Assembly: GCF_009914755.1 (NCBI RefSeq)
Contig: NC_060926.1
Reading direction: 5' to 3' (one strand)
Source: the human T2T-CHM13v2.0 reference genome, Homo sapiens
DNA length: 64,000 nt
The position numbers and the translations under genes were made by a program. A model generated the notes under the pieces. The model saw only the letters and a list, made by a program, of their open reading frames with translations. It was not told the DNA's origin and ran no database searches. Positions 2,666 to 58,711 of the stretch are shown in pieces; within the stretch, counting starts at the first letter, position 1; each line of letters starts with the position of its first letter.

Positions 2666-2823
2666 GCACACACACAGATGAAAGACTGTGTGAAGACACA
2701 GGGAGAAGACAGCCATCTACGAGCCAAGGAGAGATGCCCCAGGAGAAATCAGCACTGCTCACAGGTTGATCTTGGACTTCTATCCTCCAGAAATGTGAGA
2801 AAATAAATTTGTCCAAGCCACCC
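2666..2823 (+). mobile_element. MLT1 (MaLR) LTR internal fragment lacking both termini
   Basis: tgtgaagacacagggagaagacagccatctacgagccaaggagag…ttgatcttggacttctatcctccagaaatgtgagaaaataaatt. Confidence 0.75.
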
Positions 2824-3320
2824 TCAAAAATAAAAACTAATAAAAATTTAGTGAATTGAACCCAACAATATATAAAAAAGATAATATATCATGACCAAGA
2901 AGATTTTATCCCAGGAATACAATGTGACTTTAACATTTGAAATTGATCAATGGACACATATTAACAGACTAAAACAGAAAAAGCATAACCATATGATCAT
3001 ATGGTGGACACATCACGTTACTGACATCACTGATCAGTCGCAGTGACATCAGTCACATCAGTGGACACAGAAAAAATACTTGATAGAATCTAATGTCATT
3101 TAATGAAAGTTTTATACACATTTAAAGAGTACTATTTGGGGACAAATTTGTCGTATAAAGAAGTGCAAGAGAATTATAAAGTACAACATTCAGGATTGTG
3201 GTTACCTCTGAGCAAAGAGGGAAAGGAATGGCACTGGGTTGAAACACCCATAGTGCTTCAAAGATAAAATAATATTTTTCTTCAACACAGTGGTTGATAC
3301 ACAGTGTTTGCTTAAACCCT

Positions 3321-3624
3321 TTGTTTGTTTGTTTGTTTGTTTGTTTTTGAGACAGAGTTTTGCCCTTGTCGTCCAGGCTAGGGTGCAATGACGCGATCAC
3401 TGCTCATTGCAACCTCCGCCTCCCAGGTTCAAGCAATTCTCCTGCCTTAGCCTCCCAAGTAGCTGGGATTACAGGCCTGTACCACCACGCCAGGCTAATT
3501 TTTTTATATTTTCAGTAGAGACGGGGTTTCACCATGTTGACCAGGCTAGTCTTGAATGCCTGACCTCAGATGATCCACCCGACTCGGCCTCCCAAAGTGT
3601 AGGTGGGAGCCACCACACTCAGCC
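3321..3624 (-). mobile_element. AluS with (TTTG)n tail
   Basis: Full-length antisense Alu. Confidence 0.92.
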
Positions 3625-4556
3625 AGTTGTTATCCTTTATACCTTACACATATTGGTATTTTTTCATGCTTTAATATTTAGTAAAAGCAATTTTTAAAGC
3701 TAGTATTTCTGTTCTTGGCCTTTTTCTGAAATTATCATACCAGAAAGACATTTATTTCCTGTATTTACAGCTTTGGAAACTCATAACATTTGCAGGTTGA
3801 AAGAAGAGCTGTTTGTATGAAGTATTCAGTTTTTTTTAGAAATATAGTGTGATTTTTCTATAAACAGAGGGAACTGGTATTTCAAGTATACTACGTGAAG
3901 AACAAGAGTGTGATTAGAGCCAACAAGCCAAAAAATAGAGAGGAATCACTACCCTAGTGGTCAGTTATATATAACCGAGAGAAAGACAGCAAAGTGAGAC
4001 TAGCCTGCTAATCATATATTTTTCTACATTTCTAAAGTTCATTACTCAAAATACAAGTGAATTATATTTATTCCAAACAGTTCTGTTACGTTTTGGTCTT
4101 TATTTAGACCTGTCCCAGAATTGGACCCCAATTACCTTCTCCTACCCTTCCTTGCTAGGAACTTGTCTGAAAATTCTGCCACAAGAATTTTACAGTGTTT
4201 AAATACATTTACACTACACCATTCCTATAATTATATATATCTCACAATGAACAGTTGTCTCATTCATGAGTCTAGAATCCTTTGCTGAATGGACATGCCC
4301 AAATTTGGTGTCATTTATTTATTCTTACACATGCCGCATTCACTCAGCAGACATTAATGAGTACCTGAGCGGTGCTAGACGTGGTACTAGGCTAAAATGG
4401 AAAAACAAGACAAATGCCCTGCTGAAGGTGTTTAATGTGAAACAGACCCGTGCACAAATAATTGAGATATTTGCAATTCAGAAGAAATAGTATGTGTTAC
4501 TTAGATTTTGTACCTAAGTACAAAGTTGCATGGCCTACTTAAAAACCTTCTTCTAT

Positions 4557-55807: not shown

Positions 55808-56248
55808 TGCTATGGTTGAGTGTGTCCCCAACAAGTTCATGTGCTGGAAACACAGCTCCCAGTGCAGCAGCGTGGAGATAGGTGGGACCTTTGGGAGATG
55901 ACTGAGTCATGAGGCCTCTGCCACCATTAACCCATTCATAAATTAGTGGATTAAACCATTCATGGATTGATGGATTAATGGGTTATTGAGGGAGTGAGTT
56001 AGTAATCATGAGAATGGTGTATTATAAAAGCTAGTTTGGCCATCTGTCATGAGCCCCCTCAACGTGTGATGCCCTGTGCTGCCTTGGGACTCTGCAGAGA
56101 GTCCCCACCAGCAAGAAGGCCCTTACCAGATGTGGCCCCTAAACCTTGGCCTCCCCAGTCTCTAGAACTAAAAGAAATCAATTTCTTTTCTTTATACATT
56201 ACCCATTCTCAGGTATTCAGTTATAGCAACAAAAAACGGACTAAGAGA
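55808..56248 (+). mobile_element. MST-family MaLR solo LTR inserted in a MIR
   Basis: tgctatggttgagtgtgtcccc…cagcaagaaggcccttaccagatg…ctcaggtattcagttatagcaac…ggactaaga. Confidence 0.85.
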
Positions 56249-56928
56249 ACCCAAGATGTCTAATGTCAGATTGTGCTTGTAATAGCAATTGCTTTAAAGA
56301 GTAAATTATGAGTGAATGCCAGAGATGCAATTAATTAGCTGAGTAAACAGGTAACATGGCTACCATTGGAAATATGAATCCAGATAAATCCAGGTGTATG
56401 TACGAACAATTTATTTTCTAAAATTTGGGGACTTGTATTCCCCTGAGATGGGTCCTTCTTGAGCTTTAAGGATCTCCTATACATTCTCTGGTGTTATTAG
56501 TTCATGTGTGTTTATCTTTGCTCTACACATAGACTAGAATGTCTTTGACTAAGCTAGGTGTTTAATCTTTTATTTCTGAGGCAGCAAAGAAAATGGGAGG
56601 AATTTCAGCTCAAGGTTTGTCAGACCAGGAAAGCCTCATATAGCATCTGAGTAGCCTTGCCAAGTCAATAGGATGACATTTCCTTGTATGCACTCTCAGG
56701 GAACTTAAAATAAGAATTGAAAGAAGGTTGAGTGTTTGTTCTGAAATTTACATGAGATGTAGGACTGAGGCACTGCCTCTCAGGAATGTGAAGGGAAATC
56801 ACAAAATACCTTTGGAAATCCCCTCAATTCACCATAGAGAATACAAAATTATTGTTTCAAAGAGATAGCCATTTCATCAGTCAAACACCGATGAAATAGT
56901 TGGCTTGTGTTTGAAGATAGTGACACAT

Positions 56929-58711
56929 TGCTATAGACAAAATGTTTGTTTCCCCCAAAAAATCATACATTGAAATCCTATACCACAATATGATGGTATT
57001 AGTAGATAGGGCCTTTGAGAAATTATTAGGTCGTGATGCTGGAACCCTCTTGAATAGGTTTAGTGCTCTTCTAAAAGAGGCCCCAGAAAGCTCTTCCACT
57101 TGAGAATGTGGCAAGAAGATGGCCATCTGTGAACCAGGAAGTAGGTCCTCAACAGACACTGAATCTGCCTGTGCCTTGATCTTGCACTTCCCAGCCTCCA
57201 GAACAGTGGAGAAATACATTTCTGTTGTTTGTAAGCCAGTTTATGAAATTTCATTATAGCTGCCCAAATGGACTAAGACAAAAATTGGTACCAAGAAGTA
57301 AAATGACACTATAACAAATACCTAAAAATATGGAAACAGCTTTGAAACTGGGTAATGGGTGGAGGCTGAAAGAGTTTTTAAGTGCATGCTTAAAAAAGCC
57401 CACATTGTCATGACTGAACTTTTAAAAGGTGATTCTGGCAAGGGCTCCAAAGCAAAACAAAAACAAACAAAAAAAGCAACAGCAACGACAAAAAACACCA
57501 ACACCACCAACACCACCATCACAAGAGGAGAGCTGTAAAGAAAGCTTCGATCTCTGAGTCTTCTTAGATGATACCCACATAATCTTGAATAGAACGTTGG
57601 TAGAAATATGGATGGTAAAGGCCATTCTTATGAGGTCTCAGATGGAAATGAGGAACATGTTATTCACGGAAACTGGAGAAAAGACCATCCTCGATATAAA
57701 GTAGCAAAGAACTTTGCTGAAGTGTGTTGTTCTGGTGTATTATGGAAGGTAGAACTTGTAAGTGATGAAATTGGGTATTTAGCTGAAGCTATTTGTAAGC
57801 AAATTTCTCTGATTTCTCTAAAATCCAGATAGCGTATTTAATTAATGTAATTGTAGATAGTTTGTTTGAACCCATAGGCACAGCCTGGCTTTTTCTGACT
57901 GCTTATAGTAAAATTCAAGATGAGAAAAATGACCTAAAGATGGAATTGTCCATCAAAAAGGAAGCAGAGCTTAAAGACTTAGGTAATTCTCAGCCTATCC
58001 ATATTGAAAAGTCTGAAAAAGCCTGTTTGGGAAAGAATACTAAGGATGTGGTCAAACAACTGTTTGATAAGGAGATTAGTATGGATCAGCCATCTCAGCA
58101 GAAGCCAGGAGCTATTCTCCAGGACAATGGAAGAATGACTCTGAAGGCAATTCAGTGATCATCAGGACAATCCTTCCTACCAACAGGCCCAGAGTGCAAG
58201 GGCCCTGGAGACAGAGTGGTGTCAAAGGAGGGGCTGCTGGTGCCCTCAGGACCTCAGTGCATGCTGCATAGGGCAGCCAAACACCACTGGGTTCTATTCC
58301 TTGTGCTGTAGTGTCAAATTGCTTGGACACCCCAGGTAGAGCTCCAGTGGGACCCAGTGTAGCATGGGTCACAGAGGCTATCCCTCCCAAGGGCACAGGC
58401 AGCAACTTTGGTGGCATCCACACAATGCCATCTCTGCTGGTGCAGAGAGCTGTAGTAGAGCCCTCATGAATGGGATTAGTTTCCTTATAAAAAAAAGACT
58501 CACAGAGAGTTCCCTTGACCCTTCCACCATGTGAGGACACAATGAGAACACAGGCATCCATGGACCAGGAAGCAGGCCCTCACCAGACACCAAATCTGTC
58601 AGCACCTTGATCTTGAACTTCCCAGCCTCCAGAACTGCGAGAAAATTCCATTGTTGATAAGCCACCCAGTCTATGGTATTTTTGTTATAGCAGACCACAT
58701 TAACTCAGGCA
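56929..58711 (+). mobile_element. MLT1A-type MaLR provirus: 5' LTR 56929-57280, internal region ~57281-58455, 5'-deleted 3' LTR to 58711
   Basis: tgctatag…gactaagaca LTR; internal start aaaattggtacca; second LTR half; 5-bp TSD CACAT (56924-56928 / 58712-58716). Confidence 0.85.
57803..57873 (+). repeat. ~70-bp direct copy of 52998-53069 inserted in the MaLR internal region
   Basis: Core tctctaaaatccaga…tttgaaccc is 54/59 identical by hand. Confidence 0.9.

What the first reader, a model, noticed from the sequence alone, without database searches (positions are those of the whole stretch)
2666..57873. Cluster of fossil templated 'copy-paste' insertions: possible repair-scar archive in a large fragile gene
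Seen: in 64 kb there are four short direct-orientation copies of nearby non-transposon sequence (27551, 47606, 52246, 57803; ~92-96% identity by hand), one interchromosomal gene fragment (CLIP2), a terminus-less MLT1 piece inside L1 and micro-patchworks (3004, 40857). None has poly(A) or a TSD. Three of the four local copies lie within ~10 kb (47.6-57.9 kb). Knowledge: polymerase theta-mediated end joining, SDSA-type templated insertion and FoSTeS/MMBIR leave such scars; as I recall, PARD3B is a ~1-Mb gene listed among common-fragile-site and recurrent-break genes (verify). Inference: this intron may be a long-lived germline hotspot for templated repair. I cannot tell by eye whether the density exceeds background.
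Basis: partly seen in the sequence, partly recalled or inferred. Interest (0 to 1): 0.7.

Follow-up and report, generated by a model that had tools for sequence, protein, structure and literature searches.

The report
Old DNA-repair patch duplications in PARD3B
This intron holds four short copies of nearby DNA and one piece copied from another chromosome, likely old break-repair patches of a kind already catalogued across the human genome; the stretch is richer in them than our small control sample, but likely by chance rather than as a special hotspot.

Summary
The copies are real: four same-strand local duplicates (59-172 bp, 87-97% identical, 0.4-4.7 kb apart), a 359-bp intron+exon piece of a chr7 gene, and a donor-less LTR piece inside L1. 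They fit a known class, repair-mediated duplications (Pace et al. 2009, PMC2671141: 824 cases, mean 162 bp, peak 1.2 kb). Direction is shown for three. Corrections: one copy is two-thirds LTR-like repeat, and two events do carry flanking duplications. Density: 4 events in the window versus 2 in 28 control 10-kb tiles (2 in 20 PARD3B, 0 in 8 random); about 0.5 expected, p=0.02-0.04 before allowing for the window being picked by eye. The 3-in-10-kb cluster is not significant (p=0.22). Micro-patchworks are at background. The published catalogue shows 10 events in 23 other fragile genes against about 7.6 expected, and 2 in PARD3B against 0.3. A fragile-gene hotspot is therefore unproven but not excluded; controls are small and cover only the 5' third of the gene. 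Polymerase theta fits only the 49-bp patchwork. Verdict: new examples of a known scar type; low interest.

The parts
2666..2823 (+). Internal piece of an old LTR (MLT1-like by eye; family name recalled) lacking both ends, inserted in an L1-like stretch; net insertion about 165 bp; no donor found; boundaries approximate
   Evidence: 37 of 40 other hits cover only this piece at 78-85%; a C22 L1 copy has 45 bp where the window has 210; L026 alignment; a 30-mer from it has no second site within 3 mismatches
3004..3069 (.). About 49-bp filler of short reiterated motifs between two 9-bp direct repeats; pol-theta-like by inference
19537..19895 (-). 359-bp unspliced fragment (163 bp intron + 196 bp exon) of a chr7 gene (CLIP2 by recall), antisense to PARD3B, no poly(A), no TSD
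27120..27178 (+). Donor of copy 1
27481..27552 (+). Flank A (may begin near 27472), duplicated at 27623-27694
27551..27609 (+). Copy 1 (59 bp, 93%), at the junction of the A/A' duplication
27623..27694 (+). Flank A' (93% to A; may begin near 27610), same divergence as copy 1, so likely one event
40857..40925 (.). Five imperfect copies of a 14-15 bp unit; ordinary short tandem array
47606..47731 (+). Copy 2 (126 bp, 93.7%): 45 bp unique flank plus 81 bp of the end of a ~450-bp LTR-like repeat
48931..49056 (+). Donor of copy 2; spans the edge of the repeat at about 48978-49424
51095..51265 (+). One member of pair 3 (96.5%); donor/acceptor direction not determined
52246..52417 (+). Other member of pair 3
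52995..53069 (+). Donor of copy 4; two-copy sequence in the genome search
57800..57873 (+). Copy 4 (87%), interrupting an interspersed repeat (MaLR-internal by eye); paralogues have about 12-14 bp where the window has about 77

Best explanation
The window holds four short local duplications and one chr7 gene fragment that are likely independent, old germline break-repair patches of the known repair-mediated-duplication type, and their gathering here is likely the upper tail of a genome-wide process rather than a dedicated hotspot. Inferred mechanism for the local copies: a resected 3' end at a break invades DNA 0.4-4.7 kb away, copies 60-170 nt, lets go and is joined to the other end (SDSA-like), losing a few bases (57804) or re-copying its own flank (27551). 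The chr7 piece would be the same kind of patch from a distant genomic or pre-mRNA template. Shown: the copies, their uniqueness, direction for three, unequal divergence. Inferred: the repair pathway, ages, neutrality.
For: Sizes 59-172 bp and gaps 372, 980, 1199, 4730 bp match the published class (mean 162 bp, peak ~1.2 kb, limit 5 kb, no poly(A)). Copy 4 meets that paper's own definition, an insertion splitting a repeat. Copy 2 carries the donor's repeat/flank junction. Divergences 3.5-13% differ (chi-square p=0.04; 52246 v 57800 p=0.009) and overlap catarrhine- and primate-level rows of Table S1. The same kind of event occurs in control tiles L005 and L018. At an expected 0.55 per window, about 111 of 45,000 windows would hold 4 or more. 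10 catalogue rows in 23 other fragile genes v 7.6 expected (gene lengths recalled). 3-of-4 clustering p=0.22; patchworks at background.
Against: The window is above controls: 64/Mb v 8.8/Mb pooled (CI 1-32), p=0.022, or 0.042 if L005 counts twice. Both control events are themselves in PARD3B and the 8 random tiles have none, so the true background may be lower, which would make 4 events much rarer (12 of 45,000 windows at an expectation of 0.3). The catalogue has 2 rows in PARD3B v 0.31 expected (p=0.039). The window also has two distant-template patches, for which no background was measured. PARD3B controls cover only the 5' third, not the gene centre.
Confidence: 0.62

Rival explanations
1. 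PARD3B, or its late-replicating centre, has had a lasting several-fold higher germline rate of templated repair because it is a large fragile gene.
For: MiDAS region in U2OS, HeLa, HS68; named among RDC genes; 6 events in PARD3B sequence v 0 in 8 random tiles (p=0.22); 2 catalogue rows v 0.31; events of different ages; Frith and Khan note 'some clumping'.
Against: Other fragile genes ratio 1.3, CI 0.6-2.4; 2 of 24 genes have 2 or more rows v 1.1 expected; 5' PARD3B 12/Mb, CI 1.5-44; fragile-site junctions in cells are mainly large deletions with templates within about 20 bp; mouse Pard3b gave no high CNV frequency.
Confidence: 0.25
2. A narrow local hotspot at 47.6-57.9 kb (a structure or chromatin feature) attracts repeated breaks.
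For: Three of four local events lie in 10.3 kb and have different ages; an AT-rich microsatellite lies at 48693-48776.
Against: p=0.22 for this clustering; no sub-gene hotspots were seen in the fragile genes studied by Wilson et al. (passage); acceptors share no flank motif.
Confidence: 0.08
3. The copies are an unannotated transposon family, retrotransposed pieces or assembly artefacts.
For: Copy 2 is two-thirds repeat-derived; the 2666 piece is a repeat fragment without donor; the chr7 piece could be an RNA-derived insertion.
Against: Pairs 1, 3, 4 have no further homologue in the genome searches; copy 2 includes unique flank found only at its neighbour; 3.5-13% divergence rules out mis-assembly; no poly(A) or short TSD.
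Confidence: 0.05

Closest known systems
Repair-mediated duplications (RDs), Pace, Sen, Batzer and Feschotte 2009, PMC2671141
   Same: 50-619 bp copies within 5 kb of a single donor, peak about 1.2 kb, no poly(A), small deletions, fillers or TSDs at junctions, chimeric cases, primate ages; copy 4 splits a repeat as in their definition.
   Different: None of the four is in their Table S1 (the two PARD3B rows have other lengths, distances and divergences); their pipeline saw only repeat-splitting, single-donor cases (0.62 per Mb of repeat DNA, a stated minimum), far below 9-64/Mb by self-alignment here.
'Doublets', Thomas et al. 2004 (not held; seen only as cited in Pace)
   Same: Short local paired duplications attributed to imperfect break repair.
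   Different: Defined as identical or near-identical pairs under 100 bp; these are older and partly longer.
Localized non-tandem duplications, Frith and Khan 2018, PMC5829575
   Same: Second most frequent local rearrangement class in one person's reads; 32 same-strand and 27 opposite-strand cases; double duplications seen. Four of four same-strand has p=0.09.
   Different: Those are recent human variants; these are old and presumably fixed.
Class 2 templated sequence insertions, Onozawa and Aplan 2016, PMC5110952
   Same: Patch from a distant locus without L1 hallmarks; experimental sizes 73-414 bp; fits the 359-bp chr7 piece.
   Different: Described as polymorphisms; this one is about 8-11% diverged at non-CpG sites.
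Polymerase theta templated insertions at common fragile sites, Wilson et al. 2024, PMC11541566
   Same: Iterated short templated fillers; fits the 3004 patchwork.
   Different: Insertions analysed were 1-20 bp with templates within about 20 bp of large-deletion junctions (short reads under-detect longer ones); the four copies are far longer and farther.

Membership tests
Repair-mediated duplication (Pace 2009) | Copy of at least 50 bp, donor within 5 kb and more than 50 bp away | tested here: met
   59-172 bp; gaps 372-4730 bp, 4 of 4
Repair-mediated duplication (Pace 2009) | Single donor in the genome | tested here: met
   (search skips very common words; copy 2 unique only through its 45-bp flank)
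Repair-mediated duplication (Pace 2009) | No poly(A)/poly(T) tail | tested here: met
   junction print-out
Repair-mediated duplication (Pace 2009) | Insertion interrupts a transposon, giving the empty site (their detection rule) | tested here: inconclusive
   met for copy 4; not shown for copies 1-3, direction of pair 3 open
Repair-mediated duplication (Pace 2009) | Microhomology, deletion or filler at junctions against an orthologous empty site | not testable with these tools
   no primate genomes; paralogues imply a small loss at copy 4 and copy 1 has a duplicated flank
Class 2 templated sequence insertion | Distant single template, no TSD, no poly(A) | tested here: met
   19537-19895
Class 2 templated sequence insertion | Polymorphic in humans | not testable with these tools
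   divergence suggests old and fixed
Pol theta (TMEJ) templated insertion | Short insert with template within about 20 bp of the junction | tested here: not met
   not met for the four copies; compatible only for 3004-3069
Fragile-gene germline hotspot | Density above matched background outside the discovery window | tested here: inconclusive
   2 events in 20 PARD3B tiles v 0 in 8 random tiles, p=0.51; catalogue ratios 6.5 (0.8-23) for PARD3B and 1.3 (0.6-2.4) for 23 others

The most novel reading that the evidence does not exclude
The central part of PARD3B has accumulated templated repair patches at several times the genomic rate over tens of millions of years, so that fossil repair duplications map germline fragility of large late-replicating genes.
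Probability: 0.22. Interest if true: 0.55.

Novelty: new member of a known kind. Interest (0 to 1): 0.2.

Why it matters
As it stands it adds four unlisted examples to a class known since 2004-2009 and suggests that the published density is a strong undercount. If the hotspot reading held, it would give a sequence-only, datable record of where germline breaks recur, linking somatic fragile sites to evolution; searches listed no paper that tests this by title or abstract start, and 'fragile' does not occur in the main text of Pace 2009.

Tried and rejected
Rfam scan: 0 matches. A 13.5-kb genome search for further distant copies was swamped by repeats (39 of 22,462 candidates scored), so no full list or background of interchromosomal pieces exists. 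Donor search for the 2666 piece: none above 85% among 40 of 5,440 candidates, no second site for a 30-mer. A self-repeat threshold of 0.6 was uninformative (about 120 per 100 kb in all sets); redone at 0.88. Pair 57124/58555 (74%) rejected as two old LTR copies. Dropped from counts as tandem, VNTR or low-complexity: L006, L011, L021, L022, L032 rows; Alu-Alu pairs whose identity did not exceed distant hits; A/A' counted with copy 1; the two inverted pieces in L005 counted as one event and, alternatively, two. One-event origin of the 10-kb cluster rejected by unequal divergence. Planned control of 160 tiles shrank to 28, so background is imprecise.

Full report
1. Observation. Self-BLAST of the window gave, outside Alu-type and simple repeats, four same-strand non-tandem pairs: 27120-27178/27551-27609 (59 bp, 93.2%), 47606-47731/48931-49056 (126 bp, 93.7%), 51095-51265/52246-52417 (172 bp, 96.5%) and 52995-53069/57800-57873 (75 bp, 86.7%), plus 27481-27552/27623-27694 (72 bp, 93.1%). 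Edges are sharp. Three block-shuffled windows gave no off-diagonal hit. Genome searches found no third copy for pairs 1, 3 and 4.

2. Anatomy. Copy 1 lies between two copies of its own flank, A-insert-A'; both parts diverge by 6.8-6.9%, so likely one event. Copy 2 consists of 45 bp found only at its neighbour and 81 bp matching the end of a ~450-bp repeat that is complete at about 48978-49424; since it carries that repeat's edge, 48931 is the donor. Pair 3 has no marker of direction. Copy 4 splits an interspersed repeat: paralogues match window 57560-57803 and 57881/3 onward with about 12-14 bp between (e.g. C7, C11, C12, C3, C16, C23 rows), where the window has about 77. The piece near 2666-2823 matches many old LTR copies at 78-85% with no closer donor, and L1 paralogues continue across it. 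The 3004 patchwork is about 49 bp of reiterated motifs between 9-bp direct repeats; 40857 is a five-copy 14-15 bp array. No junction has poly(A) or poly(T). Repeat family names (MLT1, MaLR-internal, L1, LTR) are recalled by eye; no repeat library was available.

3. Background. I applied one pipeline to the window, 20 evenly spaced 10-kb tiles from the 5' third of PARD3B and 8 tiles from other places (picked by chromosome, unseen, from a seeded list of 100; GC 0.33-0.41 v 0.37 for the window). Events: window 4; PARD3B tiles 2 (L005, inverted, in two pieces; L018, inverted, 270 bp, 97%); random tiles 0. With edge correction: 64/Mb (18-165), 12/Mb (1.5-44), 0 (0-57); pooled control 8.8/Mb, 0.54 expected in the window, conditional p=0.022 (0.042 with L005 as two); window v rest of PARD3B p=0.053; all PARD3B v random p=0.22. 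The window was chosen by eye from a scan: at 0.55 expected, about 111 of 45,000 windows would hold 4 or more; at 0.3, 12; at 1.2, 1,520. Three of four within 10.3 kb has p=0.22. Self-repetitive 65-mers: 3 in the window (one a trinucleotide run), 7 in 200 kb, 5 in 80 kb; tandem arrays like 40857: 1, 7, 0.

4. Ages. Divergences are 6.9, 6.3, 3.5 and 13.3% and are heterogeneous (p=0.04), or 8-30 My at 2.2e-9 and 17-67 My at 1e-9 per site per year; they overlap catarrhine and all-primate rows of Pace Table S1. No primate sequence was available to date them directly.

5. Mechanism. Best fit (inferred): SDSA-like capture of proximal DNA by a resected break end, then end joining, as proposed by Pace et al.. 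Polymerase theta insertions at fragile sites use templates within about 20 bp and were analysed at 1-20 bp, which fits only the 3004 patchwork. Replicative template switching (FoSTeS/MMBIR) cannot be told apart from SDSA here and suits the A-insert-A' structure. The chr7 piece works like a class 2 templated insertion; DNA v pre-mRNA template cannot be decided.

6. Known classes and the hotspot claim. Pace et al. list 824 proximal cases, mean 162 bp, peak about 1.2 kb, no trend to cluster, a stated minimum. Table S1 has two PARD3B rows, neither matching the window pairs in length, distance and divergence. PARD3B is a MiDAS region and is named among RDC genes; mouse Pard3b showed no high CNV frequency in another study. 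Searching Table S1 for 23 other fragile or RDC genes gave 10 rows against 7.6 expected (ratio 1.3, 0.6-2.4), and PARD3B 2 against 0.31 (p=0.039; 2 of 24 genes with 2 or more, 1.1 expected) (gene list and lengths partly recalled, lengths approximate). So a large class-wide effect is unlikely, while a PARD3B-specific or gene-centre excess is open; my PARD3B tiles do not cover the centre.

7. Papers seen: PMC2671141, parts 1-5 of 8 of the text, passages, Table S1 parts 1 and 9 and five term searches; PMC5110952, part 1 of 4; PMC7784693, PMC8287918, PMC11541566, PMC5829575 and bioRxiv 10.1101/2021.09.20.460546, passages only; Thomas et al. 2004, not seen (only as cited).

8. Verdict. Real features, known kind, four unlisted members. 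Chance tail of a genome-wide process 0.62; PARD3B-wide or central excess 0.25; narrow hotspot 0.08; transposon or artefact 0.05. Interest 0.2.

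Noticed in passing
L005:677-882 and 2273-2524 (G000:C2:205,029,774-205,039,773): Inverted local duplication in two pieces (151 bp at 93%, 56 bp at 91%) near the PARD3B 5' end; adjacent on one side, split by about 45 bp on the other.
   Followed up: partly
L018:7951-8218 and 8786-9055: 270-bp inverted local duplication, 97.4%, 567 bp apart, with a self-repetitive AT-rich patchwork at one junction.
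   Followed up: partly
window 20321-20345: Lone A25 tract with no Alu body in front, 425 bp from the chr7 fragment and on the wrong side to be its tail.
   Followed up: no
window 14614-14667: Compound trinucleotide run (TGG)12 then (GCA)5 between Alu copies.
   Followed up: no
window 48971-49424: About 450-bp LTR-like repeat, 70-79% to 45 other matches among 40 candidates scored, not in NCBI's masked list; family not identified.
   Followed up: partly
window 47298-47312: Motif resembling an RFX X-box (motif recalled) in non-repeat sequence 300 bp from copy 2.
   Followed up: no
L006:6525-6895; L016:7878-8232: VNTRs in PARD3B introns (23 bp x16; 47 bp x7.6).
   Followed up: no
window 52241-52246 v 51081-51095: A 6-base word left of 52246 recurs 9 bases further left at 51095; pair 3 may extend through a small gap, or this is priming microhomology.
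   Followed up: no
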